Shown in pieces: positions 1,940 to 47,540 of a stretch of 50,000 bases of DNA. This stretch comes from Chiloscyllium plagiosum. Taxonomy: Eukaryota. How positions within the stretch are numbered: position 1 is the stretch's first letter; every line of letters starts with the position of its first letter. The stretch spans positions 1-50,000 of the forward strand of contig NW_025214738.1 of NCBI RefSeq assembly GCF_004010195.1. Direction: 5' to 3'. The notes beneath the pieces are model-generated. The model ran no database searches and had not been told where the DNA came from. It saw only the letters and a program-made list of their open reading frames with translations. The position numbers were made by a program, and so were the translations under genes.

Positions 1940-2295
1940 AAAGTCACCATAGTCCTATCGTACCATATGGTGACTTGCTCATTAGAGACATGATTGGTAA
2001 TAGTTTAACCTGAGGGCATCACAGGAGAGTAGTTATGAACGAATGTCCTTCATGGTATCTTCAACTCGTACAGAAATTAGCATCACTCTGCACTGCAAAT
2101 GAGCCATCTAGGCAGAAGTGGGTACTGCAGATGCTGGCGATTAGAGTCAAGATTAGAGTGGTGCTGGAAAAGCACAGCAGGTCAGACAGCATCAGGAATG
2201 AAGGGCTTTTGCCCGACAAATCGATTTTCCCGATCCTCAGATGCTGCCTGACCTGCTGTGCTAAATCAGCCATCCAACCAACTGAGCTAACTGTT
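1940..2295 (-). mobile_element. Old tRNA-headed SINE, third family (interrupted by the PLE at 2109-2262)
   Basis: Homologous to 25345-25540 (plus): GTTAGyTCAGTTGG.T.GAT.GCT..TTTGCA.TG.AGAGTGATGC...CCCTCAGGTT...CTAT.GTGACTT. Confidence 0.6.
2109..2262. mobile_element. Penelope-like terminal-repeat insertion (family A), inverted arrangement
   Basis: Inverted arms 2171-2193 and 2240-2262 (AGCACAGCAGGTCAGrCAGCATC) flank a decayed hammerhead (ATGA AGGGCTTTTGCCC GACA). TSD AAATsAGCCATC (11/12) at 2097-2108 and 2263-2274. Inserted inside an older SINE. Confidence 0.78.
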
Positions 2296-5200
2296 CCCAG
2301 TAGCAAGATAATTCTCCAAGAAGCAAAACAAAACCAAAATTTTAATCTAACAGGAGGCACACATATATCAACAGCTACTTCCAAAGTACCATTGATAAAA
2401 GCTTAGGAGCATTTTGCTCACCTGCTGTCAGCACAGAAAAACAAAGATTGATAGATTTCTAGTTATTACCGTCATCAGGGGCTTTGTGATAACATAGTAA
2501 ATGGTGTTGAGGCAGATGATCAGCAATGATCTAGAATGACAGAGCATTCTCGATGCAGAGTTCTCTACTCCTGTTCCTACGTTCCTATTTTCCTTCGAAG
2601 TAACTTAGTTTATATACTTCACCTCTATAGTAAGACAGGCTATTAAAAAATCACTTTTTTTAAAGCCAATCGAACATTCTGATCCCAATATCTATGAGAT
2701 GTGAGCATGTCGATATTGCTGCTGCTGTTACAAACAGCAATGTAGTAATGAATCTTGACCTGAAAACAAGTTTTATTTCAAGCTATCTTCACGCTAATAC
2801 AAACTAAATCTGAAACTTAAAATATATCCATTTTTGAAGACTGCCTACGTAATTCATTATAGGGACTTTCCAGCTTTTAGTTCTCCAACAAAATTTCTTT
2901 ACACCAGGTAATAGTACCAATTAATCTGCTATTGACTCCATCTGAACTCTTAATATAAATGAAACTCAACAACACAAAGCGCAGACTGCAATTATCAGTG
3001 ACTTGATAATTATAGTAAAAATAGACTTAGAGATAAACGCAAGGTCATCAATCTTGGAATATGAACTCTGTTCCTCTCCTCACAGATCCTACATGATCCA
3101 AGTACTTATAATACTTGTTTCAGATTTCCAACATGTTTTAAAGTTAAAAGATCCTATAGTAGGATGGAGATATATTCAGGTTCCTGAAAATAAATAATTT
3201 TCCTTTGTTTTTTAGAACCAGATTTTCATAAAGAAGGTCTTCTTTTATTTACTGGCCTGTAAACAGGCCATAAAGCACTGCCAAATCCCAATCTTGAGTG
3301 ACTTACTAAGCATTTTAATAATAACAGATCCTTTTCAAAACAAAGGCTCCTAATATTTCTACACCTGTCAATCTTTGTGATTTACATGCAGACAAATCAG
3401 TTAAAACAAACAGAAACTCCTTGCAGAGTCACAGATTGAAAAAGATGTCAGGCAGTTTCTGCTTCCGTACCATTAAATCAGAAGCCAAGGCAAGCTATGA
3501 TTTTATTGCATTCTTCCTGTATGTTGAGGGCTGGATGTTTAAATTTCTGAGAAACTGACTAAACCACTTCTTATAGTTTGCTCTCACAAACGTCATCAAG
3601 ATAGTCACCACATTTCTGAAGTTGAGTTATTAACTCTGAAACAATTGTAGCTATGTATTTATCTTGTTTATATCTTTGAGAAATTGTCTTTTAAAATATA
3701 ACAAATTGAATTTGTAAAGTCAGAAGTATTGGTTTCTAGGAGTACATCACACAAAGAGGCATATCACAAAGAACCACAATGGCATAAATATTGTTGGACA
3801 ATATCACTATACTGCTTTAATGCAACTCTTTTGAAGTCTTAGTTTTCCTAAAAGACTGACAATTTTTCCTAAATCCTCAAAGTAACTTCAAAGAAAGAAC
3901 ACCATTACAAACAGGTTAGCCTAGAGAAAGGAGGGCCATTAACACTAGGTGACCAAGGGTCCACCTGCACCATTATTCTTCAATCCAAGTGGCTGTGATG
4001 AATAAACTATCCTAAATCAAGGAAATTCACAATTGCTGTTGAGTTGCATGGGAGAGAAAGGGTACGATAATCAATTTTTCATGGTTAGACAAAAAGATAT
4101 TATACAAAGATTCCAGGAAAAGTTTGCACAGTAATGGCATAACACAATTACATCACATTCACAATGTGACATAATTTAGCTTTGTGTGGCTCTGTAGCCC
4201 TCAAACCATATTTTAGGGAAATTTTAAGCTGTAGTACTGACTCAACAATACACACACACACATCTTCAGGTTCTTTAATCCAACTGAAAGATTAATTTAA
4301 TTCAGAGGAAAAGCAATGCAGAACTTCTGGAGGCCAGAAAATTCACCATATAAACTATAAACTTACGAGATGGTCAAATTTCCAATCACGGATCTGCAGA
4401 GTTTTAAGATCTCAAGAGCATTAATATAGTGACACAGTAATACAATTCTATATTTAGAGTTTGGAAAAAAAATTAAATTGATTCCTTAATTGTTTTTAAG
4501 TTATTTATAAGCATTGAGGTGTGGCTCTGCCGGTAATGTCAGCTTTCTCGTATCTATCTCAGCAACGACAAGTGGGCAGCCAGCATCACAGCAAAGTTGA
4601 ATCCTGTTCCCATTTAACATTTAGATTTGTATATTGCTCAGTGTATCGACAATAAATATCCCAAAGTTGGACATATCAGTTAATATTTTGCTATGGTTTT
4701 TTAAATAACCTACTGACAAACTGTTAGTAACATTGAACATAAAAGAATAAAATGAACCAAGTACTTTAAATAAAGATGTAATTAAGCAATAAACAGATGC
4801 AGTTATACCCACACTGAGCAATACACAAGCCTGTAAACAACAAACTACTCCTGAATAAAGATAACTACCAGACTTATTTGAATGCATCAACAGTTGAATG
4901 TATTTTTAGCATAATGAATGAAGCATTTTATTTTAAATGCACTAACTTCCAAACTAAACAGTAAAATTCCTTGCATGGCTACATCAGGATAGAAACAAAT
5001 ACAGTACTTTCTGTAATATGCAAGTATTTGCACTAGAAAAGCACAAACCTGTAATAAAAAATTACAACGCGTTCTGATATATGAATATTTGCATTCCACG
5101 GTATTTTAAGCATTATCTACCTAGAGAATGATTTACCCACAGTACAATGCCACACGCTATTCCTTTCCAAAGTCTAAATTTAGATCTGTAGACAGACAAA

Positions 5201-6249
5201 ACAGTTACCATAATTTTGGTTGCTCAACAGGTATGAAATATACTTGTTCATGTCTTTCTAGAATTCAACTTTGCACCATACCACTCTCTGCACCACTCAT
5301 GTTTGCAACACACACTGCTAACAAGGGACCACTTGGTTTCTGAAGTCAATATGCTTTTAGTATCAGAGATCCCAGGGTTACGCAGCTGCTATTATCTCAT
5401 TAGCCCATCCCCTTAAAAAAAACCTTTCTCTGCATGAGGAAGGTGCTCGCTTCCCAGTGATGATTCACATTCAACTTACACTTCATAATTCTGAGAGCGT
5501 TCAAGATGAACATTACTCACAATTCCACTGACCTGTAAAAAAAATTGAGATTCAAATCAAAAGGCAATCAAAAAGTAGTTGTTTCTAATTCAAAAACATT
5601 ATGGTCAGTGCTAAAAAGCAGCCACACAAACTGGAAGTTTGCTTTCTAGAAGAGTTCAGTGCAGGCTGGACAGAATGTATAACCCTCCAATGATCCTAAT
5701 GGGTTTGTTCCATGGATTATAATAAACCTACATTCAAAAATCAGACCTGAAAACAGTGCTTTTATAACATACACAACATTCAATTTCTAACCATGTGTCA
5801 ACGCCCAAATCTTTTTTGTTGGTCCCAGTCGGGAGACCTTGGGGAATTAAACTCAGCTCAGTCAAAAATATCTAGGTGCAACTTATGCAAAGGTGAAGAC
5901 AGAGGCAGCTTTGCAAATGAGTCACACAGTTGAGTTGCTATATTCTATTCTGTGTCAAACTAACGAAGTCCAGTGGGGTGGCACTAGGGTCAGCCCTAGT
6001 ACAAGCAGATGAAAAGTCAGCCCAGACTCCACCTTAATTTGCAATGTTTATTGTTAAGACATTTCAATTGTGGGCATCAGCTGAGAATACAATGCCACCT
6101 ACAGGTAAACAGACTGCTCATCATACCTACTTACTCATGCAAAACAGCCACCTTGTTAAAAACAACCATAAAGCACTTTAGAGCCCTGAAATGCCATTCA
6201 ACGTTAACTAAATTTGGGCAAATTTATTGTAAAAAAAACTAATTCATTC

Positions 6250-7040
6250 GCACTAGATTGTTGTCATCAGTTCCTTGGCATAGAGATTACTCTAGTAAAC
6301 GCTAGACAAGTTCTCAGATGACTGAAGCCCAATTTCAGATTCACTTTGTGGGAAAAGTTGTGGACAAGTGGATTTTGCAGCCTGGATCAGTTTCTTTTCC
6401 TTCCCTCTGCTACTCCTGTTCACCTCAAGGTTGAATCACTGAGCCTCAAAGTGGACAGTGACTTGATGAACAAGGCCGTGCCATACCAAACAATCAGCAG
6501 GCTTTCTGCACCCAGTCTGTAGTGTTAATGCTATGCCTTACAGTGAACTCAAGTGCGTCCCTATTACTTTTCTTTTGGCTACAGGATAACTTGGAGTAAA
6601 GAATCTGCCAAGGCTGAGGTTTTCAGATACGTGGAACAGAATTGGTTTTTCAGGGACTTGTGGAGATGCAGCTTCATGGACGGATGCTCATTGATCCAGT
6701 AGTCCTTCCATTTGATCCCCAGGATTCAATAATGGCATCACTGGTAGAAATTAAAGGATCCTGTGATATCCAGGTTTCGCTGCAGTGCAGATGGTGTTGG
6801 AAAGTTTTAGCATCCTTTGCATGCTCTGTGTTAACATCTGTAAACAGTCATCTTAAACTGAAGGTCATGGATGTCCATAGTGGTGAACTTTGTTTTTGCC
6901 CAGAAGCAACCAAGGTTGAAGATCTTCCCATTCAGACAATATTGATTGCCAACAGTCAGGTCAGTGCCATAACACTATACCAACCATTTCCAAACTGGCA
7001 TACATGTTTCCAAATCTACCTCTTAATTTATGCTTTTACC
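6250..7040 (-). mobile_element. Highly decayed LINE 3' region, probably RTE clade
   Basis: Minus-strand remnant FYQ*CHY*ILGIKWKDYWIN resembles the RTE C-terminal FHxRCLRxILxIxWxDxxxN motif. Many stops are present. Confidence 0.5.
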
Positions 7041-9303: not shown

Positions 9304-9417
9304 GTTAAAACAATGACTGCAGATGCTGGAAACCAAATTCTGGATCAGTGGTGCTGGAAGAGCACAGCAATTCAGGCAGCATCCAACGAGCAGCAAAATC
9401 GACGTTTCGGGCAAAAG
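9304..9417 (-). mobile_element. Penelope-like 3' fragment (family A), truncated inside hammerhead helix II
   Basis: Nearly colinear with 44012-44127. Perfect 14-bp TSD CTTCTCACACATAG at 9290-9303 and 9418-9431. Confidence 0.85.
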
Positions 9418-9594
9418 CTTCTCACACATAGCCAAATTAATGTATTAAATTAAACTGAAGCATTGTTTTTCTTACTGAGGCATTATGCTCAACCACTGTC
9501 CATTCAAGAACCATCTAATTGTACTACCAGATATCACTTGTTGTAGGAAATGGAAAACTACTGCACATTTTCCCCACTAAGCTAAAAGGCAATG

Positions 9595-9935
9595 AATCAT
9601 AGAATCACTACACAGTATGAAAACAGGCCCTTCGGGCCAACAAGTCTATACCAACCCTCCAAAGAGTATCCCACCCAAACCCATTTCTCTACCCTATTAC
9701 TCTACATTTACCCCTGACTAATACACCTAACCTACCCATCCATGAACACTATTGGTAATTTAGCATGGCCATTAACCTAACCTGCACATCTTTGGATTGT
9801 GGGAGGAAACCAGAGAAAACCCATGCAGACATGGGGAGAATGCGCAAACTCCACACAGTCGCCTGAGGCTGGAATCGAACCAGAGTCCCTGGCGCTGTGA
9901 GGCAGCAGTGCTAACCACTGAGGCACTGTGCCGTG
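9595..9935 (-). mobile_element. HE1-type V-SINE
   Basis: Reverse-complement match to 32598-32911 including A/B boxes, V-domain and tail. Confidence 0.88.
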
Positions 9936-14317: not shown

Positions 14318-14503
14318 CTGGATGTAGGTTTGCCTTTTTTTTGTTTAGAAATAGAAAGCAAGAATCAGCAGCAGTGCTTGGCCCAGAGGCCCACTGATGA
14401 CGTTACCTAGTAGGGTGACGAAACATACGGAAATGAACCTTCCAGCTCAGCGAGCAATCCTATATCCAGAACCTCAACCTGAGCTACAAATCTTAAAACT
14501 CAT
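14318..14503 (+). mobile_element. Penelope-like terminal-repeat insertion (family C) with short inverted 5' segment
   Basis: Contains the hammerhead at 14391-14430. 14318-14333 is the reverse complement (14/16) of 14454-14469. TSD AGAACATA at 14310-14317 and 14504-14511. Nested in a CR1-type LINE fragment. Confidence 0.75.
14391..14430 (+). ncRNA. Minimal hammerhead ribozyme motif (family C), core intact
   Basis: CCA CTGATGA C GTTACC TAGTAG GGTGAC GAAA CA TA CGG. Core at 14394-14400, 6-bp helix II (14402-14407 with 14414-14419), GAAA at 14420-14423. The helix III palindrome and first helix I pair are mismatched. Confidence 0.7.
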
Positions 14504-14552
14504 AGAACATAGCTTCAAATTATTCAGCCTCTCATATAGGACATCACCCCTA

Positions 14553-15108
14553 TGAGAAAGTTTACAAGGTATGAGCTGGTAAGGAAAGAGTGAGGTTTTG
14601 AATTTTGTGAAACAAAAGATTTAGCTGAGTATGACTCAGATCAGATAAGAACTTGCAGTTAACAATGAGGTGCTGGAGGCAAGGGTAGTGGGTTAACAAG
14701 TGGAAAAGCATTCATTATGTACAGCCACTTAACAAGATGAGGTGGCATTCAGTACGTAAAGTCAGTTAACAAGGGGAAAAGTATCCATTATGTGAAACCA
14801 GTTAACAAGGTTAAGAACATTCATTGTGTAACAGCAGATGGCTTAATCTTTACTATTGACACTTGCTGATTGTAATGGTCACCCAATTGATATATATGTT
14901 GCCTTATCTGGATGCTCCTCCCTTTGAATGACTATGTATTTCACTAAAAAACTGCTGTTCGAGAGAAGACCATGAACCCATGTCCCTGTGCACATAGGCA
15001 ATCGTTCCCTCCCTCCAGGGCCCGGAATAAAGATGAAGGAGGTAAAGCTATACTGTGTCTCTGAGCATTTTGCTTTGACTAAAGCAGGAAAGGGACAACT
15101 TATCGATA
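14553..15108 (+). mobile_element. Probable solo LTR with tandem U3-like repeats
   Basis: About 555-bp block that interrupts a CR1 fragment. It starts with TG and contains five ~36-bp tandem units, CCAAT (about 14883) and AATAAA (about 15026). No clear TSD. Confidence 0.5.
14659..14838 (+). repeat. Five degenerate ~36-bp tandem units
   Basis: TTAACAA recurs at 14659, 14693, 14729, 14766 and 14802 (spacing 34-37). The last four units share (C/T)AT(T/C)CA.T..GT. Confidence 0.75.
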
Positions 15109-17189: not shown

Positions 17190-18545
17190 GGTCCATTTAA
17201 TTCAGTTTAAGACTTTTTTTGCCCTTGCAAGTATAATTGAAGGCCTTCAAAGAGGAAACAATTCGGGTGTAGTCTAAGCCCGTACTGAAGAGGGAAAAGG
17301 AAAAGCTCATGGTATTAGAGATAATGTATTGACGTGGACAGAACTGGTTGGCAGACAGGAAACAGAGTTGGAATAAATGAGTCCTTTTCAGAGTGGCAGG
17401 CAGTGACAATTCAGGTACCGCAGGGTTCCCTGCTGGGATCCTAGCTGTTCACAAAAACATTAACGATTTGGATGAAGGAACTGAATGCAATATCTCCAAA
17501 TTTGCAGATGACACAAAGCTGGGTGGCAGTGTGTACTGTGAGGAGGATACTAGGAGGCTGCAGGATGATTTGGTCAGACTGGCTGAGTTGGGCAAATGCA
17601 ATATAATGTGGATAAATGTGATGTTATCCACTTTCATGGCAAAAACAGGAAGGCAGATTATTATTTGAATGGTGGCAGTTTAGGAAATGGTGAAGTGCAA
17701 TGAGGCCTGGGTGTCACAATGGCACAGTCATTGAAAATTGGCATGCAGATGCAGCAGGCAGTGAGGAAAGCTAATGGCATGCTGGCCTTCATAGCAAGAC
17801 GATTTGAGGAGAGGAGTAGGGATGTCTTGCTGTAGATATACAAGGCCCTGTGAGGCCACACCTTGAGTATTGTGTGCCATTTTGGTCTCTTAGTCTGAGG
17901 AAGAATATTCTTGCTATTCAGGGAGTCCAATGAAGGTTCACCAGACTGATTCCCAAGATAGCAGGACTGACATATGAAGGAAGACTGGTTCAACTGAGCT
18001 TGTACTCACTGGAATTTAGAAGAATGGGGGTGGAATCTCATGGAAACAGGCTAGACGGGGATGAATGTTCTCAATGTTGGCAAAGTCCAGAACTAGGGGG
18101 TCACCATTTCAGAATATGGGGTAAGCCATTCAGGACAGAGAAAAGAGGAAGAACTTCTTTACTCAGTTGTGAACCCCTACCCCTGGAATTCTCTACCATA
18201 CAAAGCTGTTGGGCCCAGCTCGTTGGAGATGTTCATGAGTGAGCTGGTCATGGCCGTTGCGGCTAAAGGGATCAATGGGAATGGAGAGAAAGCAAGAGTA
18301 GCATACTAAAATTCTTGCTGGCCTTCATAGCAAGAAGATTTGAGGTGAGGAGTAAGGGTTCATTCCTAAAGAAGGGCTTTTGCCCGCAACGTCGATGTTC
18401 CTGCTCCTCAGATGCTGCCTGACCTGCTGTGCTTTTCCAGCACCACTCTAATCCTTACTAAAATTCAATTATGAGCCATGACCATATTGAATGGTGGTGC
18501 AGGCACAAAGAGCTGAATGCTCTACTTCTGGACCTATGTTTCTAT
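17190..18545 (+). mobile_element. CR1-type LINE ORF2 (reverse transcriptase) 3' fragment
   Basis: Peptide INDLDEGTECNISKFADDTKLGGSV...LQDDL contains the CR1 RT FADD catalytic motif. Frameshifts and stops are present. Ends in a (CTATGTTT)-type tail. Confidence 0.9.
18315..18455 (+). mobile_element. Penelope-like 3' fragment (family A) with a captured local sequence at its 5' junction
   Basis: 18361-18452 reads CATTCCTAAAGAAGGGCTTTTGCCCGCAACGTCG...CAGCACCACTCTAAT (decayed hammerhead). 11-bp TSD TACTAAAATTC at 18304-18314 and 18456-18466. Confidence 0.8.
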
Positions 18546-18554
18546 GTTCTAAGT

Positions 18555-20110: not shown

Positions 20111-20119
20111 ACATCAATT

Positions 20120-21670
20120 TCAGTTGGGATGGTAAGGGGAGATATTAGGTGTTTTAAAAAGTATACAGGCGCACAAATCCCTAGGTCCCAATGAGATGTT
20201 TCCCAGACTGCTATTGGAGTCAAGGGAGGAGATTGCTAGGGCCCTAGCAGAGATACTTAATATCTTGCTGGTCACAGGTGAAGTGCCAGATGACTGGATG
20301 AGAGATAATGTGGTTCCTTTACTCAAGAGGAGCAGCAGGGATAGGCCAGGTAATTACAGAACAGTTAGTTTGATGTCAGTAGTTGGGAAATCATTAGAAG
20401 TAATTCTGAAGGCAGAAATAATTAATACTTGGAAAGGGAGTGATCAGCGCTGATTTGTTAGAGAGAGATCCTGTCTGACTAATTTAATTGAGTTTTTAAA
20501 AAATATATTGAAGAAGGTAGTGCAGTTAATGTGGCTTACCTGGACTTCAATATGGCCTTTGACAAGGTCCCACATTGAAGGTTGGCTCATAAAATAAGAT
20601 TCTGGATCAAGTTGGTAACTGGATCCAACTTTGGCTTACAAATAGAAGGCAGATTGAGGAGATTTGTTTTTGTAATTGTAAGCCCATGAACAGCAGTGTA
20701 CCACACAGCCTGGTGCTGGGATCTTTCCTTTTGTTATTTACATTTAATGGCTTGAACATGGATGAAGAAAGTATAATCAGCAATTTTACAGATGACACTA
20801 AAATTGCTGGTTGTTGTTGATACTGAGGAAGATGGTCTCAGGCTACAGTCTGATGTTGATCAGCTGGCAAATTGAGCAGAGCCATGGATGATGGCATTTA
20901 ATCCCGATAAGAGAGAGGTAATGCATTAGGTCCCTTTGGTGTAGTGAGGAATAAAGGGAACTTGGTGTACAAATCCATAGATATTTGGAGGTGTCAGCAC
21001 AGGTAGACAGGGTAGGCATATAGATGCTTTCCTTCATTAGCCAGGGTGTAGAATTTAAGAGCAAGTGTGTGTGCGTGTGTGGTGGTGGGGAGATCTTATG
21101 GAGGTACACAAAATTGTGAAAAGTATAGAAAACGTAGATTGTAAGAATCTTTTCCCCGTGGCAGATGTCTTTAAAACCAGAGGGCATTACTTTAAAGTGA
21201 GGAGTAAGTGCTTGAGAGGTGATTAGATTAGATTATTTACAGTGTGGAAACAGGCCCTTCGGCCCAACAAGTCTACACGGACCCACCAAAGCGCAACCCA
21301 CCCAGACCCATTCCCCTACATTTACCCCTTCACCTAACACTACGGGCAATTTAGCATGGCCAACTCACCTAACCTGCACATTTTTGGATTGTGGGAGGAA
21401 ACTGGAGCACCCGGAGGAAACCCACGCAGACACGGTTGGAATGTGCAAACTCCACACAGAGTCACCTGAGGCGGGAATTGAACCAGAGTCTCTGGCGCGG
21501 TGAGATCGGAGAAAGAATTTTTTTCACTTGAAGGATGGTATAAAATGCCTGAGAGTGTGGTACAGGCAGATACTCTCAACATTTAAGAACAATATGTACG
21601 AGTACTTAAAATGCCAGAGATCGTAGGGAATGGACTAAATGTAGGTATGTGGGATTAGTGTAGTTTGGTG
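20120..21670 (+). mobile_element. CR1-type LINE ORF2 fragment with internal deletions
   Basis: Peptide GEVPDDWMRDNVVPLLKRSSRDRPGNYRTVSLMSVVGKSLE, followed by YLDFNMAFDKVPH and FTDDTK remnants. An HE1 SINE is nested at 21223-21503. Confidence 0.88.
21223..21503 (-). mobile_element. HE1-type V-SINE, 5' truncated, nested in a CR1 LINE
   Basis: Close reverse-complement match to 32640-32905 with a (TTAGA)n tail. The A box is missing. Confidence 0.88.
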
Positions 21671-22517
21671 TCGTTGCTCATGGGGCGAGTGAGCCCAACG
21701 TGGCAGAGAGCGAGGTCCTCCAACATCTGCAGCGGCAGACAGCAGACAGCCTGAGGCTGCCGCGATTGAGTACTGTGTGATCTGGAGGTGAGGCCCAGCG
21801 CAGTCTGCTTGAAGGACTGGAATACTGTAATTATTTTTCTAATTTATTCCTAAGATCCTATATCTAGGACCTTTGTACATAATATGGCAAGGTAAATGGA
21901 GACTTCATAAACTTTTCACTGCACTCGAATACATGTGACAACATATATAATTATACTTCTACTCAAGTAAGCAGCACTTAAAAGCACAGCAAACCCCTAA
22001 TACAACTCTGAAGAATCAGCCTATACTATGTTCAAATCTCTAAAGTGGGCTGAACCCACGGTTTTACAATTAGCCATTAATAACACTAAAGTAGAGCTTT
22101 TTAGTTTTCTAGAAATGTTGAAACTTTTTTACACATATTATTTCAGTCACTTCAGGTTCACACATACAAATAAATTAAGAGTACCAACACTCTGATGTAG
22201 CCGGTTACGATTTAAGCTGATGTTATTACTGGACAAAATCAGATCTCAGCCTGAAATATGCCTCGATAAATCATACAGATTTATTAAAACTTTAAAAAAG
22301 ATCTTCCACCAAAACAAAAATACAATGCTACAGATTCAAGTTTCACAATTAAAGAATGTTATAATACAAAAGAAATGAAGATAAAATAGAAGAAACCAAA
22401 CTATTTATAGATGGCACAAGTTTAAAGATTTTAAAACACACAGTAAAATACAACCCCATTATTTTAAAAAGCAGTTCTTTACAGTACTTGGAAATAGCGA
22501 GGACTGCATCATCAAAG

Positions 22518-22815
22518 TGGGTGGCACGGTGGCTCAGTGGTTAGCACTGCTGCCTCACAGCAACAGGGTCCCAGGTTCAATTCCAGCCTCAGGTGACTGT
22601 CTGTGTGTAGTTTGCACATTTTCCCAGTGTACTCCGGTTTCCTCCCACAGTCACAAAGATGTGCAGGTCAAGTGAATTGACTATGCTAAATTGCCCATAG
22701 TGTTAGGTATATTAGTTAGAGGGAAAAGAATCTGGGTGGGTTACTCTTCGTAGGGTCTGTGTAGGCTGGTTGGGCCGAAAGGCCTGTTTCCACATTGTAG
22801 GGAATCTAATCTAAT
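22518..22815 (+). mobile_element. HE1-type V-SINE
   Basis: Same head, V-domain and tail as 32598-32911, with a small internal deletion. Confidence 0.88.
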
Positions 22816-22820
22816 CAAAT

Positions 22821-23190
22821 CAAAATAAGGCCATACACAAACTTGTGGAAGAAAATCTCATCTCCCACCTTGGGAGCTTACAAATTTATGGCCTCAACAT
22901 AGAATTCACCACCTTTCAAAACTCCCCACCCCAAACTAGGTCCAGCCCTCCCTCTCCATCCACCCCCTTGACCTGACCTAACCTATCTATCTTCCTTCCC
23001 ACCCATCCACTCCAATATTCCCACTGACCAAATCTCAATCACCTCCTACTTGCATCCACCTATTGCCATCTGACCTACCTTTCCCCCAGCCCCAATACCC
23101 CCACCTCATTTATTCCCCTCCCCAATTCTGAAGAAGGATCCTGCCTAAAATGTCGACTCTCCTGCTTGACCTACTGCGCTTTTTCCAGAG
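22821..23190 (+). mobile_element. Penelope-like element 3' end: GIY-YIG endonuclease C-terminus, C-rich tract, decayed hammerhead
   Basis: Translates as QNKAIHKLVEENLISHLGSLQIYGLNIEFTTF, matching the ExxxIxxLxT/SxxxxGLN terminal motif of PLE GIY-YIG domains. A pyrimidine-rich tract follows, then CTGAAGA A GGATCCTGCCT AAAA TG TC GA at 23128-23156. Confidence 0.72.
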
Positions 23191-24062
23191 CCATATTTTA
23201 ATCAAATCTTTACAGTACTAATACCAGACAGAATTCCCTTGTCTTTCTCATCTTGGAGGGCCTAATTGTACTGTGGCTTCGACATCACATCTTGAAAGTC
23301 CAATAATTTCTACACTGAACCTTCATACAACTGGGCTTAGAGACTTTCTCAGCTTAAAGTAGCTTCAAATACTTGAGGTCTAGAAGTTCTAGACTAAACT
23401 CCTTCCAGGGAGGTAACAAATTTCTGAACAGTCCTAAACTACCTCAATTTCTCAGGAGCATCTATTTTACACAGCCAGCTTCAGCAAAGACATTTGTAAA
23501 ACTTCTTAAAATTCATTTTAATTCAAAGTCTTTTTTCCAAGCTCCAAACAATCCAGAATCTTCGATAATGAAAACCCGATGCACTAGATTGTTTACATGT
23601 AAGCTTTCTCAAATTAATCAAAACCCCCTTACATTCAAAAAGATTTCACACTAATATTTCAAAAGAAATCACCATGGCTACACAAATATTTACAAGTTAA
23701 TCATTAATCCCCAGAGAGACAGATCAAAATCCACAAATTACTGATTGAAATCCAAACTCTAAATGATCGTTAAATATATATAAATCACACACTTTACATC
23801 AGAACCCTCACTTTTTACCATGCTATAAAAATCATCCTCAGCCAAGGACTTTCCAGATAATGAGTCAAGATTAACATCAAGTGAAAAGAAAGTGCGCTCA
23901 GGAAGTGACCAAAGAAATCAAACATGTAATATGTTTGACAAATTAAACAAAATTTCTTGAAGTGACCAAATGAATTAAACAAGTAAACATAGTGCATATG
24001 GAATTTTGAGGGCATCCCACAAAGCTACTCAGAAGACTTGTTATAAAATGATCAAGTGTATA

Positions 24063-26264: not shown

Positions 26265-27409
26265 TTCTGGTTGGAGTTCTCTACAACTTGTTTAAACTGT
26301 AACAGACAACATCAGGTTCAAGTCCCATCAACTCCACAGGTGTGTAACAACATCTATGAAAAGGTCTATTGGAGAACAAAAATCCACTGATGTGAGATAA
26401 GCAAAGACAAAACTGAAATTATCAAAAGGCACAAACTTAGTATTCAGACAGAATACACAAAAACAAGCTTGTATTTCAAGGAACTACTTTTAAATATTAC
26501 ACGCTTTTACATAACATAAATGCATGACATGACATCTTTATTTATGTTCTCCCTAATTTCTTGTGCTGACTTCTGAGTTCTGTGCACAGTATGCTTAAAG
26601 GGAAGCAGGATCATATAGCTGAAAATGACCAAGTACACACAGGGTTTCCCAATGTCTCACATCTGTGCAGTATTACAGTACAACACATTGCTAAGCAGAT
26701 AATACAACTGATCTTTCTTTCACTAAGAAAATCTTGCAAGTACTCCTTACTGATCTAGACATTGGGTACCTGTATTTTAATTAGAGGTATAGCTTAGTGC
26801 TTAAACAAGGAATTTTGTTGTTGCAGTCAACAAGATGTGTAAAGTGAACCTTTCATGCCTCACCTGATTGCATACTTTCATTGCTTTTGTCACAATCAAC
26901 TGAAAGATATAAAAGGATGTAAAGAAGCAGTAAATTATGGATTAAACCAGTACACCTTCAAGAAACTGTATAGATTGGGAAAATACAGCTTGAAAATAAA
27001 CAAGCCAATAGTAATGATTTAGTAAATAGGAGGAAAGTAAGAACAAGTAGTAGTGTTAAATTTAAGTCAGGAGTTGGAACCGTAGTTCAGTTTTGAATAC
27101 ATTACAGAATGTACATCAAAGCTACTGAATATGGAGAGTAGGTTCAGGAGAATGACACACATAAATTCTTGGTCTCTTGGAATCAAGAAATATGAGGACC
27201 ACGTAGGAAAATGGACTGACATCAGCCAAGATCATATTACTCAGAAAATGTTCAATGGGTCATATGATCTACTCCTGCTTCACATCTTGTACACTTTGCA
27301 TGAAAAATTAGCTCTGGAGAACTGACGAACTGTGATTAATTCCATTGGATCAAATAAAGTGAAAGGAGACCATTGTGTTGTTTTTCAAAGCTACTAAGAG
27401 TTGTTCTAA

Positions 27410-27640
27410 GGTAATGGTGGCTCAGTGATTAGCACTGCTGCTTCATAGTGCCAGGGATTCGGGTTCAGTTCCAGCCATTGATGGATGACTGTATGGATTG
27501 AGCTTGTATGCCCTCCATGTCTACATGGGTTTCCTCTGTGTGCTCTAGTTTCCTCCCACAGTACAAAGATCTGCAGGTTAGATGGTTTGTCCATGTGTCC
27601 AGCATGGTGAGAGATGTGTAGGCTAGGTGGAATAACCAAA
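27410..27640 (+). mobile_element. Degenerate HE1-type V-SINE
   Basis: TGGTGGCTCAGTGATTAGCACTGCTGCTTCATAGTGCCAGGG...GGGTTTCCTCTGTGTGCTCTAGTTTCCTCCCACAGTACAAAGA. Confidence 0.78.
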
Positions 27641-27777
27641 GATTGCTGAGTAAATGAACAGAAGTTTTGAGGGCTTTCTTTATACAGAATTGCTGGAATA
27701 TAGGCATTCAGGTAGAAATCATTCCATTTTTGAGAAGAAAAATATTTAAACCAGATGCAAGGACTAAACTAAAGAAT

Positions 27778-28090
27778 CGCAAATGCTAGAAATCTGATTC
27801 AATAACAGAAATTGCTGGAGAAACTCAGCAAGTCTGGGAGCATCTGTGTACCACGATTTGGAGGAGCCAGTGTTGGACTGGGATCGACAAAGTTTAAAAA
27901 AATCACAACACCACGTTATGGTCCAACAGGTTTAATTGGAAGCACTAGCTTAAGAAGCAGTTCGTCGAAAGCTAGTGCTTCCAAATAAACCTATTGGACC
28001 ATAACCTGGTGTTGTGTGATTTTTAACTTTAACAGCATCTGTGGAGACTGAGCAGAGTTAATGTTGAGACCAGGGATCCTTCTCCGGAAC
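27778..28090 (-). mobile_element. Decayed PLE-type terminal repeat (family D), interrupted by a family B insertion
   Basis: Homologous to 47410-47540 (TGCTGGAGAAACTCAGCA...AGCATCTGTGGAGA...CAGAGTTAATGTT). It is split at AGCATCTGTG by the 27849-28033 insertion. Confidence 0.65.
27849..28033. mobile_element. Penelope-like inverted terminal-repeat insertion (family B)
   Basis: About 62-bp inverted arms 27889-27951 and 27969-28030, each ending in the hammerhead 3' half (AAGCTAGTG). 10-bp TSD AGCATCTGTG at 27839-27848 and 28034-28043. Homologous to 35389-35569 and 32419-32487. Confidence 0.82.
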
Positions 28091-28862: not shown

Positions 28863-29028
28863 CTCGGTCGGCTGTTAGACACTGCCCGTCTCCCTCCGGC
28901 TTCTCCCTGGGCTTCTGGCTGCGGTGCCGAAAGTGACAATAAGGCCGGTTGCAGGAGCCGCCATCGCCGCTGCCACCGCCGTAAAAGGGGCACTCGATGC
29001 TGCGGAAAAACTCGGTGGAACGCAGCAT
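28863..29028 (-). CDS. REXO1: REXO1 coding exon 1
   Basis: ATG at 29028 (ACAATGC) encodes [55 protein letters not shown]. This matches the REXO1 N-terminus as I recall it (MLRSTxFFRxIxCP...[10 protein letters not shown], a C-x12-C-x4-C-x3-H motif here). The exon is 166 nt and ends at a consensus GTGAGT donor. Confidence 0.95.
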
Positions 29029-29241: not shown

Positions 29242-30147
29242 TGAGGCCTACTCAACCACACGCGCATTTTGGAGCCATTGGTGGGGGGGAAAGATAAATA
29301 GAACAAAATTTACAGTTATATAGCACCGTTTACCACCCCAGAGCTGTTCCTCGGGGGTCCTCAATGATGATGAACACACCTTTAAAGTCACTGCTCTCAC
29401 GTTGGAAGCACTGCAGCAAGCTCTGTTAAGTTTCATGACCAGATAGAAGCACAGAACATTCTGGAGAAACTCAGTTGGTCTGGCAGCATCTGTGGAGCGA
29501 GAAGCGACTTCATGACTGGATAATCTGTTTCTTCTTTGTACTGTTAGTTGGAGGATTTTTTTTTACTAATTTGTAGGACATAGCCATCGCAAGCTGTGCC
29601 AACATCTATTGCCTGTCCCTAGTAGAGGAGTTGGTGGTGAGTTGCCTTCTAAACCTATCCTGTTCGTGTACCCATCCAGAAGCCTTTTAAATGCAATTGT
29701 ACCTGCCTCCTTGGCCCATCTGCACCCTGCCTATTTTGGTGTCATCTGCAAACTTACCAATCATGCGAAAATCATTTTGTAGCACATCATTGCTACAAAA
29801 TGATTGCTCACAGGCCACCAGTCCAAAAAGCAACTCTCTACCCCACTTTCTGTTTCCTACCTTCAAGCGATTTTTGTATCCAATTGACTAGTTCTCTCTG
29901 CATTCCATGTGATCTGATGTTACTTACCAGTCTACCATGTGGAACCTTTTCAAACACTTTTCTGAAGTCCCTATAGACAATGTTTTCTACTCTGACTTTA
30001 TCAGTCTTCTTTGTCACCTCTTTGAAAAACTCATTCAAAGTTAGAGAGATACAATTTCCCACACATACAACCATGTTGACGATCCCTAATCAGTCCTTGC
30101 CTTTTCCAAACGGATGGATACCTTGTGCCTTAGAATCCCCTCCAATA

Positions 30148-30263
30148 GGAGACAGTAAGGTCTGCAGATGCTGGAGATCAGAGTTGAGAGTGTGTTGCTG
30201 GAAGAGCACAGCAGCATCTGAGGAGCAGGGAAATCGACGTTTCAGACCGGAGCCCTTCATCAG
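30148..30263 (-). mobile_element. Penelope-like 3' fragment (family A variant)
   Basis: Carries the hammerhead core. 12-bp TSD TCCCCTCCAATA at 30136-30147 and 30264-30275. Nested in a CR1 fragment. Confidence 0.82.
30233..30263 (-). ncRNA. Minimal hammerhead ribozyme motif (family A variant), helix I lost
   Basis: Minus strand reads CTGATGA A GGGC TCCG GTCT GAAA CG TC GAT. Core and ACGU palindrome are intact and helix II has two G-U pairs. The insertion is truncated exactly at the first C of the core, so the 5' strand of helix I is missing. Confidence 0.68.
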
Positions 30264-32418: not shown

Positions 32419-32487
32419 ACTATAACCTGGTGTTGTGTGATTTTTAACTTTGTACATTCCAGTCCAACACCGGCATCTCCAAATTAT
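32419..32487 (+). mobile_element. Penelope-like extreme 3' fragment (family B)
   Basis: ACTATAACCTGGTGTTGTGTGATTTTTAACTTTGTAC...CAGTCCAACACCGGCATCTCCAAAT matches the reverse complement of 35388-35453. Confidence 0.7.
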
Positions 32488-32597
32488 GATATCCCAGAAA
32501 CTGCATGTGATATTAATGGTGATAGTGCTGTGGGTGTGCCTAAACTACCAAGGACTGCAATGATTCAGAAAGCTAGCTCAGAACAACCTCCTCCAGT

Positions 32598-35388: not shown

Positions 35389-35569
35389 TTTGGAGGTGCC
35401 TGAGTTGGACTGGGGTGGACAAAGTTAAAAATCACACAACACCAGGTTATAGTCCAGCAGGTTTAATTGGAAGCACTAGCTTTCGGAGCACTGCTCCTTC
35501 ATCAGGTGGTTGTGATGAGGCAGCACCTCGAAAGCTAGTGCTTCCAAATAAACCTGTGTGATTTTTAAC
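35389..35569. mobile_element. Penelope-like inverted terminal-repeat insertion (family B) with two back-to-back hammerhead motifs
   Basis: The minus arm carries the intact hammerhead at 35474-35508. The plus arm carries a decayed one (GTGATGAGGCAGCACCTCGAAAGCTAGTG, 35512-35540). 16-bp flanking direct repeat TTTGTTAAATTCAAGA at 35373-35388 and 35570-35585. Confidence 0.85.
35474..35508 (-). ncRNA. Minimal type I hammerhead ribozyme, PLE-type, structurally intact (family B)
   Basis: Minus strand reads CAC CTGATGA A GGAGC AGT GCTCC GAAA GC TA GTG. Helix I is CAC/GTG (3 bp), core CUGAUGA, an extra A before helix II, helix II GGAGC/GCUCC (5 bp), GAAA, a palindromic AGCU mini helix III, and NUH = CUA. 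Predicted cleavage is between 35477 and 35476. Confidence 0.85.
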
Positions 35570-36204
35570 TTTGTTAAATTCAAGACATCTTTGAAAATAT
35601 TACTGAAGTGAATCTCTATGACTCTACAACATTTATATAAATAAAGGAAATACAGAAAATGCAGCATATATAGATTTTCAGAAGATGCTCAAAAAGGATA
35701 CTATTTATAAGAATGCAGGCAGTGGTCTAGGAGGAAATTTGAATACTTGATAAGAAACAAATTATTAAACTGAATAGGGTTGTTTCACATTGAAGACAAA
35801 TTGGAAGTGGCAAACTCAGCATTGGATACACAATTGTCCATGATATCATGGATGTTTTGGATTTGGACCTTTGGGACACAATATCAGAACTTAATGACAA
35901 CACAAAAATTCAAGTTTGTTACGTTGTGAAATGGCAGGCAGTTGACATATGAAATTTGAAGTTGCAGTTCATTTACTTGGAAAAGCACAGAATCGATACA
36001 TAAATTCAATATAAAGATCCCAAATGTATAGAGGAATATAAGAAACAATGGTAAGTAAGTATAATAATTCCTTGAAAGTGTGAATTGTAGGAAAAGTGAT
36101 TCAAAAAGAGCACAATCAAAATCAGAAATTGCTGGAAAAGCTAATGAGGTCTGGCAGCATCTATGGAGAGAAGTCACATCACCAAAAACTAGAATCCAAG
36201 TTCA

Positions 36205-41238: not shown

Positions 41239-41254
41239 TTGCTATTGAGGTTAA

Positions 41255-41927: not shown

Positions 41928-44011
41928 AATGTAACTCTAGCCATTGGCAAAGGTACTAATTTACCATGAAATCCATGAAATAGAATAACATAGTAGAATA
42001 TGCCAATATTTTTGAAAAAGGTGAGAGAAGACTTGTGTGAACCATAATTCCTGGCATTGTTCAGTTCTTTTCCTGTATTGGAGAAAAAATGGCTGGCACT
42101 TTCAACCTCTTCAATAGCACCTGGAATGAGCTGTCATGCAAGGTAAATCATAAGGTGGGATTGAATGGCAGAGGACCGCGCCTATGTCATCTACCAACCT
42201 CTGTTGGAATTTTGAAAAAAGCAGCTTTGGTGACAAAAAGCCCACACAGTCACAGGCCAATTTAAGCACTGATGTGAAAGATTAGTGGGTACCACCTGTT
42301 GGTATTTTACCATTGCTGATTGTGGGTTGTGGTGGGCACACTGGGGAAGACAGTTGGATAAACCCTAGCAGGGAGCTCGGGAAGGAGTTGGCAAGTTCAG
42401 GTCATTGTGGCCAACCCAAGCCTAACCTTTTTTTACTCTGTGCCTCTACAACCACCAGCCCTACACCCCGCCCCACCATCACACCACACCCCCTATTGTG
42501 GCACCCTTCATTTTGGCCTACCTGACTGTGCCTCCCCATCCCAGTTAAATTGATCCAGTTACCACAATATCTCGTCTCTCGCCATTGTATTCTTGGGTGA
42601 TAGACTGAAGTTCCATCAATAGCCACCATTCCCGACAGCTCAATTGAGTCTGGAGAGCTGTTAGACATCTGATTGTCAAGAAATTCTTGGTGGCACAACT
42701 TCGTCCCATGTGGGGTGGAAACCTTAACGTGAGGCAATGAACAAGTCAAAGGCTATAGGTCAATGCAGTTTCAGCAATGCAAAGGTTAGCTCAACTCTAA
42801 CCTCTGTGACACCACTGCTCCTGTCTGAAATTTAACCCAGTGTAACTCAATTTTTTAAACTCAGAAAATGGAACAATTTTACCTCTTTGCAGCTTTGCTT
42901 TCTACCTTAACCAACCTGTATTTATCATGTTAGAATTCTACGGAATGGAGTTTGATCCTGAATAATTGTGTCACAGTGCCTCCAAGTGGCATTTTTAGTA
43001 ACTGCAATGAATGAGGTTGGTAATTCCAAGTTCGGGTGAAAACAATTTGGTTTCTTTATTTGTTAACTGCTACAGCACTTAGATAAGAAAGACAAAACGC
43101 ACCCAATGTTCACATTCTGATCCTTTCTAGTAAGTAGAGAATGCAAGAAATTTTGGGGAAATGCCACACACCCCCAAACTCCAAAAAAATGTGGTATAGA
43201 TGCAAAAATTTGGTATTTGACAATTTGTTTAGCCATTGATGGAGGCACTCCAAAATCCAGCTTGCAACTCAAAACAAAACTGCTATTCTCAGTACATATG
43301 AAGTGACGCCTAGTTTTATAGTCACACTGTAGATGGCTCATGTTATTTGGACATTTTCACTTACATTTTGTGATCATGAATCAGAACACAAAATACTCAA
43401 TAATAATCTTGGCCTATCTTGGAAGCAATAAAATAAAGCAATAGAGATGAAAGCTATTTGATTGATTACACACATATGTAAATCATTCTAAATTCTATGG
43501 ATTGGTCACACAGAGAAGATTAATGCGCTTCTGCATTGAGATTATGAAATGCACTGCACAGCACTCTGCACTTCACATGAAGTGAAGCTTTAAAATGTAG
43601 TTAATTTAATCAGAGGAAACTCTAACCTAATAAGAATAGGAGGAGAAACTGTTTCTGCTCGAATCTAGAATGCTAAAGGCATCTCACAATAGAAAATGGA
43701 TCTCAGCAATAATATAATCATATAGATCTCTACCTATTATCGCAAGAGAAACGGCTTCTGCATGAATGTATTGAAACGCCCCTACAGCAAATCCATAAGA
43801 AAACATATCAAAAGAGCTTCAGTAAATGTTGTTGTAACAAGAGCCTCGACATCTATTAACACCATTTCTAACCCAGAGCCACTTTGCTCAAGGATAGGAT
43901 AATAAGAATGGCAGTAGTCATTTTGCTTCTTGAGACTGTTAAGCCGTTCCATAAGTTAATGACTGAATAGTATCTCAATTCCAATTAGTCACTTTACATT
44001 CTGTGATCTGG

Positions 44012-44352
44012 GTAAAAACAATGACTGCAGATGCTGGAAACCAGATTCTGGAGTAGAGTGGTGCTAGAAAAGCACAGCAATTCAGGCAGCATCCGAGGAG
44101 CAGGAATATCGATGTTTCGGGCAAAAGCCCTTCATCAGGAATGGAACTGGGGTGAGGTGGGGGAAGGGGAAATGAGGAAACTGGTGAAGTCCACATTGAT
44201 GCTCTGGAGTTGAAGTGTTCCGAGGCGGAAGATGAGGCATTCTTCCTCCAGGCATCGAATGGTGAAGGAGACGGTGAAGGAGGCCCAGGACCTCCATGTC
44301 CTTAGCTGAGTGGCAGGGGGAGTTGAAATGTTGGGCCACAGAGCGGTGTGGT
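44012..44352 (-). mobile_element. Penelope-like element 3' end (family A): GIY-YIG C-terminus plus hammerhead-bearing terminal repeat
   Basis: Minus strand encodes QPHRSVAQHFNSPCHSAKDMEVLGLLHR, then after a frameshift RCLEEECLIFRLGTLQLQSINVDFTSF. This matches the VAxHF..H and ExxxIxxLxT..(G)IN motifs of PLE endonucleases. The hammerhead follows at 44108-44142. TSD TGATCTGG at 44004-44011 and 44353-44360. Confidence 0.85.
44108..44142 (-). ncRNA. Minimal hammerhead ribozyme motif (family A), core intact
   Basis: Minus strand reads ATTC CTGATGA A GGGC TTTT GCCC GAAA CA TC GAT. Core and helix II are intact. The helix III palindrome ACGT seen in sister copies (9.4, 18.4, 30.2 kb) is ACAT here, consistent with CpG decay. 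Helix I has only 2 clear pairs. Confidence 0.75.
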
Positions 44353-46604
44353 TGATCTGGAAGACTTTGTGAACTCAAACATCTTGTAGAAAATGCACTA
44401 GAGGTATTATTATGGATAAAAATTAAGAGCACCCAAATTCTATATCAGGGTACATGACATTATATGCATTGAGGGATCACTTCTGCCTGATCACAGATGT
44501 ACTAATTCTTTTTCATTTATTTCATATGAATGGACAGAAGATAAAGAATTTTCCATGAATGCTGAGCTTGTTAAAGGCAGTGACTCTGATTGCTAAATCT
44601 AAAAACTCTTTAAACTTCACCAGCGAAAATGAGCCACTTATACATGCATGTACAGAAACCTATCAGGACTGTAGAAAGAGATGAAATGTGGTTGAGGAGG
44701 TTCAAAAATGGAGTTTCAGGGAAGGTGGACACATATTTGGGTGCCACAGCACATTTAAGAACTTTTCAGAAGAAGTGAATGTTGGAGGTGGTCCATTAGT
44801 TTGTAAGGATAGAGGGGCCAAGGGCTGGGTTTTTATAAAGAAGGGTGTTGATAACAAATTTGAAGAAGAGCAGATAGCCCCTGAGGGAAGGGAATAGTTG
44901 GTGATTTACAACTCACACAGGAGCTAAGAAGGGAGGTTAGGTATCCAGTAATTTGAATTAATAAGGCTGCAATAGCATTCAGAAATTGCCTTAACTGCTA
45001 AGTGCATTCAACATTTTCTGTTTTTATTTTGGATTTCCAACATCTACAGTAATTTGCTTTTGCTGCTGAATTTTATTTGATTAGCTGCAATGACTCTAGG
45101 CATTAAACCAAACAAATGAAAACAATATCTCTAAATGGATTCAATACTTAAATGTGCCTTCAATTTGGTGCCTTTCCAAACTGAAAAGGACAATAAGCAG
45201 ATAAATGTATACATAAAAAGAAAAAAGGAACCTTACACTAAAATTATGGCTGTTCTGCCTTGACATTTGATTCAAATGATTCTTCAAAGCCCATTCCTTT
45301 AAGTTATCCTCAAGAGTTAATGACATAATCAAAAGATTGTGGATGAGAATGATCACAAAGACTGGAGACTTGTTTAAATTACTGAAATTTTACCATGAAG
45401 ATCTCAACATTAAAAATATAGTGCTATTCCATAATTTAGAAACTCTGATTCCTTTTGTTGATGCTTTACTTCCAGATGTTTATTACCATAATGCAGAAGG
45501 CCTTTCTCTATAGTCAACTTTCTAATGAAGGCTTAAATGTAGACAAAAAGAGATTCTCAGAATAATGAGCAAACAGCTGGACAAGACTGCTGGTTGGCTT
45601 CCTCTGAAAAACTCCAGATTACCTTGTAGGGCAACTTATTCCTGAAAAACCAATGAAGATTATCTTTTCTCTAAGATGCTTTGAAAAATCCGTGTTCTGT
45701 TTAGGAACATGACCAAATATGGGAGCACACATTCAACTGACTATCTCTTGTCATGAACCTTGTCATTCTGGCTGTATGCTTTAACGAAAATAGAAAGGAG
45801 GTTGCCAAGTCTTGTCACTCATGACAGTGTTTGGTTATGTCATTTATTTGGTCAGGTAATATACCTTTGAGGCAGCAGAGAGGATACATCCCGAACTATG
45901 CACACTCACTGAAGGAGCTGTGCTGTCAAAGGACTTCACTCTTAAAGTCAATTTATATAATACCCTTGCATATTATCTTTGAGTATTTGCGAGATGTCAA
46001 AATGTGACTTATGCTGAGACTTTGATGCAGTGCAGTATAGCAAACAGGTCCCAAGTCTATCTCAGCCAGAGCGAGGACTGCATCCTGCACTGTTGGTATT
46101 ATTCAAAAGCAAAAAATAGCCATTTATGCAGCACTCCCCCCACCCCCAAACAAGTTCTACATGATGGATCTTAAGTTCTTCCTGAGATTTGTTTCTATGT
46201 TTCCTTTAAAAGCAGTCGAAGTAATATTCCAATCTTTGCAAATGGATAAAGTAACTATATGTGTACATCTGGTCTCCTAGAATCTGGAGTCAATGAACAA
46301 ACTCAACTAAACGCTGACTGTAGGCCAAGATCAAATTGTTAAAGTGATCTACGTATGCATTTTAAGCAACAAGCTTAGGGTCGTCTGCAGTTAATTGAAC
46401 ACTTTTGGATCAGAAAACAATTGTAGAACAGCATTACAGTATTATAAAGAATGCCAATACTTTTTTTTAATTGTACTTCTCTGGCCCAGCTAGATGCCCC
46501 ATACTGTCTATCTTTGGATCGACTTACCTCTGTGAGCAAGGGCTTTTCAAGTATGAATTTCATCAAAAGCCAGGTGAATGTAAAAGTTAACATAAAGCAA
46601 AGGA

Positions 46605-46778
46605 TTACAGATATTTGAAATCTGATCAAAATCAAAAAGTGCTGAAGATACTCTGCAGGTATGTCAGCATCTGTGAAGAGTGAAACAGAGTTCACGTTCA
46701 GAGCCCAAGAAGTGTTCTGAGTATGTGTTCTCTCCACAGATCCTGCCAGACCTGCTGAATTTCTTCAGCACTTTCTGA
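46605..46778. mobile_element. Older inverted PLE-type terminal-repeat insertion (family D)
   Basis: Imperfect inverted arms at about 46636-46687 and 46726-46774 (AAAGTGCTGAAGA...GCATCTGTG / CACAGATCCTGCCAGACCTGCTGAATTTCTTCAGCACTTT). Confidence 0.62.
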
Positions 46779-47409
46779 TGAAAGTTAACTTTCATGTTTG
46801 AAAATGAAAACGACAGCACAGTGTTCAGATTTCAAACAACTCTCCAAAGAAGTTTACCTTCAGAGCTTGTAAGAGGTATTCATTTTTATTTACAGAAGTT
46901 AATGTTAAATAATAGCTTGTTTTATTATTTTTTAACATCTTCAACATGAGAAAGCATTCATTAAATTAATATCTTTTTGTCAAAAACTTTAAAAATATTT
47001 GTTTATCAACATTTTTGTTTGACAGTAAATATCTTTATGAATGCCACAATAAAATGGTATTGCATAGAAATCCATAAATGTGTCACTGACTGGTTTTTAA
47101 TTGTATTGATGTTTGAATAATTGCAAAGTGGTATTTAAAACATTGTGTTTTTGGATAAATTTTGTTTTCAAGTGACTCCTCTTGTCATTAATATTATGGA
47201 CCCTGAAATATCCTTTACCATTGTAGGGCAATACCACTTTCTGTCCCAAGCACAACTGCCTAGCACTACATGAGCTTTTTGGGAGAACATAGGCACCATC
47301 CCCAAACCTGTAATTCCTACTGGAAACTTGTTTAAGACCAGGCCTCTGTGTATCCATGTCCTAGAGGAACTTCTGGCTTTCCATACAACTACCTGAGATA
47401 GAATGATAA

Positions 47410-47540
47410 AATAAGGAACTGTGGATGTTGGAGATCTAAAACACACAAAAACAGAAAGTGAGTGATTGAGCATGTCTGGTAGCATCTGTGGAGAGAAAAC
47501 AGAGTTAATGTTTCGAGTCCAGTGACCCTACTTCAGAAGA
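47410..47540 (-). mobile_element. PLE-type terminal repeat (family D)
   Basis: Contains the degenerate hammerhead at 47502-47538. It shares the downstream CACAGATGCT(G/A)CCAGAC...TGCT...CCA(G/A)CATC layout with family A. Further scraps lie near 3.1, 7.5-7.65, 29.45-29.5, 32.1 and 36.1 kb, and a family A scrap lies at 48.75-48.8 kb. Confidence 0.65.
47502..47538 (-). ncRNA. Degenerate hammerhead motif (family D)
   Basis: Minus strand reads TT CTGAAGT A GGGTC ACTG GACTC GAAA CA TT AA. It has a 5-bp helix II, GAAA and helix I TT/AA, but core A9 is T, so it is probably inactive. Confidence 0.6.

What the first reader, a model, noticed from the sequence alone, without database searches (positions are those of the whole stretch)
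2109..47540. At least four distinct hammerhead-bearing repeat families in one 50-kb window, with different helices around the same core
Seen: family A CTGATGA-A-GGGC TTTT GCCC-GAAA-C(G/A)TC (2.2, 9.4, 18.4, 30.2, 44.1 kb; related copy at 23.1 kb). Family B CTGATGA-A-GGAGC AGT GCTCC-GAAA-GCTA (27.9, 35.5 kb; tail only at 32.4 kb). Family C CTGATGA-C-GTTACC TAGTAG GGTGAC-GAAA (14.4 kb). Family D CTGAAG-TA-GGGTC ACTG GACTC-GAAA (47.5 kb; decayed at 28.07 and 46.7 kb). Helix II sequences differ but always pair, the single extra base after the core is kept, and helix III is a 4-nt palindrome (ACGT or AGCT) or its CpG-decayed form. This is covariation-type evidence for a selected RNA structure. Inference: roughly one copy per 4-5 kb would imply a very large genomic hammerhead load in this lineage. 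I cannot tell whether these specific families are already described.
Basis: partly seen in the sequence, partly recalled or inferred. Interest (0 to 1): 0.7.

Follow-up and report, generated by a model that had tools for sequence, protein, structure and literature searches.

The report
Dead Penelope retrotransposon ends with hammerheads
The repeats are real and are most likely broken end-pieces of a known kind of jumping gene (Penelope-like) that carries a tiny hammerhead RNA motif; only four copies keep the motif's core and even the best one is predicted to misfold, so this is mostly ordinary shark genome debris.

Summary
Motif real: 4 full-core hits against a mean of 0.03 in 500 shuffles. 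Of 12 listed copies only 14.4, 30.2, 35.5 and 44.1 kb keep core plus helix II. Only 35.5 kb also keeps helix I and the palindrome, and its own inverted arm is predicted to mask it. A and D share a 3' tail, so there are three lineages, not four. Two A copies follow Neptune-type GIY-YIG remnants. Target-site duplications, inverted 5' arms and one-sided 30-38-nt tails fit Penelope-like element (PLE) ends. The pattern (extra base, paired helix II, palindrome, several families per genome) is the consensus published by Cervera and de la Pena 2014. The covariation reflects selection on past master elements, not on these loci. Extras: about 10^5 near-identical copies each of A and B (rough); family B RNAs are polyadenylated about 28 nt past the predicted cut; 9 of 17 copies start near the core. 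The scan found this before (929 notes, at least 36 genomes, including this one).

The parts
2109..2262 (.). Family A insertion, foldback: long 3' arm on minus, motif-bearing arm on plus, core broken by a micro-inversion at the junction; in REXO1 intron 1
   Evidence: (12-nt duplication, 1 mismatch)
9304..9417 (-). Family A insertion starting inside helix II; no CUGAUGA
   Evidence: (14-nt perfect duplication)
14318..14500 (+). Family C insertion: short inverted arm, full core at 14394-14427 with 7-pair helix II, decayed palindrome, 31-nt one-sided tail
   Evidence: (duplication score 9, not above null)
18352..18460 (+). Family A insertion, two core mutations, no long tail
   Evidence: E 2.5e-5
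22822..23196 (+). A-lineage PLE 3' end: GIY-YIG C-terminal remnant (22821-22919), about 200-nt pyrimidine-rich spacer, decayed motif from 23128
   Evidence: 16 of 33 proteins, best E 5e-7; 10-nt duplication; E 0.39
27759..28089 (-). Family D insertion with decayed core, split by the family B insertion
27849..28033 (.). Family B foldback insertion nested in D; the arms meet in helix II, no core
   Evidence: 58-nt arms, 17 nt apart; 10-nt duplication
29465..29514 (-). Old family D 3' fragment
30148..30263 (-). Family A insertion starting exactly at C3; full core, helix II and palindrome; helix I 5' strand absent
   Evidence: 12-nt duplication; E 4.6e-4
32419..32489 (+). Family B tail only
35389..35569 (-). 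Family B insertion: only copy with core, helices I and II and palindrome (35505-35477), ATTAAA at 35467-35462, family poly(A) site at 35450/35447, inverted arm on plus
   Evidence: (16-nt perfect duplication)
36113..36172 (-). Family D 3' fragment
44012..44352 (-). Family A PLE 3' end: frameshifted GIY-YIG C-terminus (to 44142) joined directly to the motif (44138-44111, palindrome decayed) and full tail
   Evidence: 19 of 33 proteins, best E 2.8e-13; E 8.9e-9
45005..45050 (+). Family D tail fragment
46592..46780 (.). Family D foldback insertion, no core; the CTGATGA at 46775 is formed at the junction with flank
47405..47538 (-). Family D insertion, A9 changed to T, decayed palindrome
   Evidence: E 0.011
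48742..48802 (-). Family A tail fragment
28864..29028 (-). Host gene REXO1 coding exon 1 (context)
   Evidence: (91% to Hemiscyllium ocellatum REXO1)
1..1326 (-). Host gene REXO1 coding exon 2, cut by the window edge (context)
   Evidence: 94% over 445 aa

Best explanation
These 17 short repeats are most likely dead, 5'-truncated insertions of the terminal repeat (pLTR) of three Penelope-like retrotransposon lineages in a carpet-shark genome, each carrying the known minimal hammerhead motif, which would cut only as a dimer or with the element's protein. Shown: the motifs, their decay, the A/D shared tail, GIY-YIG remnants upstream of two A copies, duplications at 6 copies, inverted arms at 5, and poly(A) addition on family B RNA. 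Inferred: the element's reverse transcriptase-endonuclease nicked the target, started cDNA at one of two sites about 85 and 120-130 nt past the core, and usually stopped early or flipped strand. Helix sequences diverged between families because the masters had to keep the fold; each inserted copy then decayed neutrally, CpGs first. Cleavage at these loci is unlikely.
For: ORF link: tblastn of 33 proteins hits 44357-44142 (55%, E 2.8e-13) and 22821-22919 (61%, E 5e-7), same strand and just upstream of the motif. These shark and ray proteins carry RT and GIY-YIG with a Cys-rich linker (sequences), the Neptune mark (PMC8557442; PMC3846280). Zebra-shark P0004 reads through into LMKGLRPKRQ, the motif translated. 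Insertion marks: 6 of 17 duplications score above the best of 150 random boundary pairs. Inverted arms of B end at +85 and +87, main arms at +117 to +123; C differs by 31 nt, matching the 30-40-nt PLE tail. Motif equals the published consensus. A model built from 22 non-shark motifs finds 44.1, 18.4, 30.2 and 47.5 at E 0.011 or better; 7 of 131 fetched loci also hold PLE ORFs. Decay: 8 of 12 listed copies fail the core test. B35.5 has helix II probability 0.0 once its inverted arm is included.
Against: No ORF remnant links B, C or D to a PLE in this window, and the 36-aa frame through C found 0 relatives in 1.84 billion proteins; their assignment rests on anatomy and, for D, on the tail shared with A. 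11 of 17 copies have no duplication above the null, and I set the boundaries by eye. The model missed C and gave B only E 0.84 (it was built on A/D-like patterns). A2.2's arms differ by about 60 nt, not 30-40. No genome was available, so no family consensus or true copy count. Cleavage was not tested.
Confidence: 0.88

Rival explanations
1. The short copies come from dedicated non-autonomous masters (SINE-, MITE- or retrozyme-like) mobilised in trans by a PLE, rather than being by-products of full-length elements.
For: 15 of 17 copies are about 150 nt or shorter on the main arm. B27.9 and B35.5 share the same inverted-arm end, and both read ATTAAA on the main arm and AATAAA on the inverted arm. 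Depth over the A motif (8.1e5) exceeds that over the ORF remnant (3.6e5) in run X6. Animal retrozymes are described as PLE derivatives (bioRxiv 10.64898/2026.07.22.740005).
Against: Each foldback has its own junction. Two A copies run into ORF sequence. No tandem array overlaps any copy (2 arrays found). Family B RNA reads continue upstream of the motif (82 reads).
Confidence: 0.15
2. The motifs are active, selected ribozymes at these loci and affect host transcripts.
For: Four copies keep the full core. Seven insertions lie in REXO1 intron 1. One family supplies poly(A) sites to RNAs somewhere in the genome.
Against: Only 1 of 12 listed copies keeps every element and it is predicted to be locked in a long hairpin. 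The decayed palindrome gives no dimer helix (+1.3 against -3.1 to -4.5 kcal/mol). No same-strand intact partner lies nearby. No orientation bias in the intron: 4 of 7 sense, core-bearing arm 4 of 5 antisense, p 0.375. No pile of read ends at any predicted cut (weak test). Published min-HHRs are inactive as monomers and need protein in the anole element.
Confidence: 0.04
3. Chance matches to a short pattern.
For: Relaxed patterns do pick up unrelated sites: 3 of 8 hits with one mismatch allowed are not family cores.
Against: 4 observed against a maximum of 1 in 800 control sequences; all four sit at the same place in repeat families.
Confidence: 0.01

Closest known systems
Minimal type I hammerheads (min-HHR) in pLTRs of metazoan Penelope-like elements (Cervera and de la Pena 2014, PMC4209133; read: main text parts 1-2 of 4, supplement file 2 part 2 and term search; supplement file 1 not available)
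   Same: Consensus CUGANGAH, G..C helix II, GAAAN palindrome NUH; short helix I; several consensus families per genome (6 in coelacanth, 8 in Xenopus); mostly single truncated copies; pairs on opposite strands. The painted-turtle row has the same GC-type palindrome followed by CCAAAUAAA as family B.
   Different: No shark row in the part of the alignment seen; 'shark', 'Callorhinchus' and 'Leucoraja' have 0 hits in the 2 supplement files searched. Reported loads were about 4,000 and 9,000 motifs; here roughly 10^5 close copies per family (rough).
Neptune-clade EN+ PLEs (PMC8557442 and PMC3846280, passages read)
   Same: RT, Cys-rich linker, C-terminal GIY-YIG; 5' truncation, adjacent inverted copy, 30-40-nt tail at one end, 8-10-bp duplications.
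   Different: Only the last 33-75 codons survive here, broken; no full element in the window. Clade of B and C not established.
Poseidon element PAc of the green anole (Frangieh et al. 2024, PMC11167929; parts 1-2 of 4 read)
   Same: Two internal RT start sites that define the tail; no RNA reads ending at the cut. Family C has an open frame from the core through its tail, as PAc's ORF starts at stem II.
   Different: C's frame found no protein relative; nothing here was tested biochemically.
Animal non-LTR retrozymes (bioRxiv 10.64898/2026.07.22.740005; parts 1-2 of 5 and term search read)
   Same: Type I hammerheads, PLE-derived, present in the one chondrichthyan sampled.
   Different: Retrozymes are tandem arrays; these are single dispersed insertions with duplications and inversions.

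Membership tests
PLE minimal hammerhead (min-HHR) | Core CUGANGA ... GAAA ... NUH | tested here: met
   4 of 12 listed copies intact; the rest decayed or truncated
PLE minimal hammerhead (min-HHR) | One extra base between A9 and G10.1; G10.1-C11.1 pair | tested here: met
   Extra base in 4 of 4 strict hits; G-C in 3, G-U in A30.2
PLE minimal hammerhead (min-HHR) | Palindromic 15.2-16.2 allowing a dimer helix III | tested here: met
   ACGT at 30.2, 9.4, 18.4; AGCT at 35.5; duplex -3.1 to -4.5 kcal/mol; decayed at 44.1, 14.4, 47.5
PLE minimal hammerhead (min-HHR) | Short helix I closing the core | tested here: inconclusive
   3 pairs at 35.5, 2 at 44.1 and 47.5, first pair broken at 14.4, absent at 30.2; predicted probability at most 0.03 in monomers
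PLE minimal hammerhead (min-HHR) | Self-cleavage as dimer or with protein | not testable with these tools
   No assay; no pile of read ends at the predicted cuts in one single-cell run
EN+ Penelope-like element | RT plus GIY-YIG ORF upstream of the motif, same strand (family A) | tested here: met
   GIY-YIG C-terminal remnants at 44.1 and 23.1 kb; RT part not in the window
EN+ Penelope-like element | ORF link for families B, C, D | tested here: inconclusive
   No remnant; C frame 0 hits; D shares A's tail
EN+ Penelope-like element | Inverted 5'-truncated copy next to the insertion | tested here: met
   5 of 17: 2.2, 14.4, 27.9, 35.5, 46.7
EN+ Penelope-like element | 30-40-nt tail at one end only | tested here: met
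   B27.9, B35.5, C14.4 (30-38 nt); D46.7 about 46; A2.2 about 60 does not fit
EN+ Penelope-like element | Target-site duplication | tested here: met
   6 of 17 above null, 10-16 nt
EN+ Penelope-like element | Tandem pLTR-ORF-pLTR full-length unit | not testable with these tools
   No genome held; none in the window
Non-LTR retrozyme | Tandem units, each with a complete hammerhead | tested here: not met
   2 tandem arrays in the window, neither on a motif
Rfam hammerhead families | Match to a curated model | tested here: not met
   0 hammerhead families among 9 matches at E up to 10

The most novel reading that the evidence does not exclude
Shark PLE ends are laid out like a retroviral R-U5: the RNA starts at about the hammerhead's first base, is polyadenylated 56-59 nt later in the downstream repeat, and is reverse-transcribed from internal sites at about +85 and +120. 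The mass of 110-135-nt copies would then be strong-stop cDNAs inserted without a strand transfer, ORF-bearing copies would need a jump across the hammerhead-bearing repeat, and 44.1 kb would be a mis-landed jump. The hammerhead would mark the redundant terminal segment rather than cut. Support here: family B copies extend about 60 nt past the used poly(A) site, so they cannot be primed from the polyadenylated end; 9 of 17 5' ends fall within -10 to +16 of C3. The strong-stop idea is taken from earlier scan notes; RT stalling at helix II explains the 5' cluster equally well.
Probability: 0.3. Interest if true: 0.6.

Novelty: new member of a known kind. Interest (0 to 1): 0.2.

Why it matters
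As it stands, it extends a 2014 observation to carpet sharks, at a copy load perhaps ten or more times that reported for coelacanth or frog. Rfam does not detect these motifs, so annotation misses them. The role of PLE hammerheads is still open. Abundant shark copies give a large natural record of where PLE cDNA starts and stops, and family B may hand poly(A) sites to host transcripts. Nothing here shows a function for these particular copies.

Tried and rejected
No whole genome was held, so no genome-wide descriptor count or family consensus. Rfam: no hammerhead match. Pfam on the window's own fragments: 0 families for the 3 PLE pieces; the link came through homolog P0001. Family C frame as a Poseidon N-terminus: 0 hits. 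Antisense bias in the REXO1 intron: not supported. Gene on the right half: run X21 gave almost no depth on unique DNA in 33.5-50 kb and X22 laid nothing; no RNA holder was listed on record; this says nothing either way. Genomic footprint of cleavage: only D29.5, old and with an uncertain edge, starts near the cut (1 of 17). Viral contigs: 10 pattern hits, none similar to the window at E 1e-4; not followed up. No metagenome locus matched the shark families. ESM Atlas gave no usable hit for the host exon. Lunse et al. on dimer cleavage was not held; known only through a review passage (PMC6765202). Literature searches for a shark PLE hammerhead study and for PLE polyadenylation listed none; subscription journals, Dfam, Repbase and bioRxiv supplements were not searchable. 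No tRNA genes.
Full report
Setting. The window is from a shark. The ORF starting at 29028 on the minus strand is REXO1 exon 1, 91% identical to the epaulette-shark protein, the best of 163 hits; exon 2 lies at 1-1326. So 1.3-28.8 kb is REXO1 intron 1. CpG observed/expected is 0.24. No genome was held.

Noticed in passing
window 1-1326 and 28864-29028 (-): REXO1 exons 2 and 1 with a 27.5-kb first intron and a GC-rich start region; seven PLE-end insertions lie in the intron with no orientation bias.
   Followed up: yes
window 35447-35467 (-): Family B carries a used poly(A) site; in both foldback copies the main arm reads ATTAAA and the inverted arm AATAAA, which is unexplained.
   Followed up: partly
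window 44138-44145, 18358-18366, 2190-2205: Three family A copies have a junction 4-7 nt upstream of C3; at 44.1 kb the ORF end is joined there directly, without the long spacer seen at 23.1 kb.
   Followed up: partly
window 14397-14550 (+): An open frame runs from family C's core through its tail, as in Poseidon elements; the 36-aa piece found no relatives.
   Followed up: yes
window 27849-28033 and 30148-30263: Nested insertions: B inside D at 27.9 kb; the 30.2 kb A copy sits in an RT-like LINE fragment (tblastn hit at 29898-30035).
   Followed up: partly
window 18352-18362 and 18450-18460: A18.4 has a short inverted copy of its last 10 or so bases at its 5' end instead of a direct duplication.
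   Followed up: no
window 9852-9933, 21220-21459, 22516-22817, 27404-27595: Several copies of an abundant SINE (HE1-like, name recalled, not from a call); a second repeat family at 8.7, 12.7-13.5 and 37.9-38.4 kb.
   Followed up: no
window 14692-14831: Degenerate 36-nt tandem array, 3.9 copies.
   Followed up: no
P0004, P0024, P0028: Shark and ray gene models include PLE sequence: P0004 reads through the hammerhead as protein; P0024 and P0028 are named host proteins fused to a PLE GIY-YIG end, probably mis-annotation.
   Followed up: no
L022, L049, L050 (whole loci); L024:317-3397: Metagenome contigs with PLE ORFs, tandem in L022, L049 and L050, beside minimal hammerheads.
   Followed up: partly
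L001-L010: Ten phage-collection contigs match the minimal hammerhead pattern; not examined.
   Followed up: no
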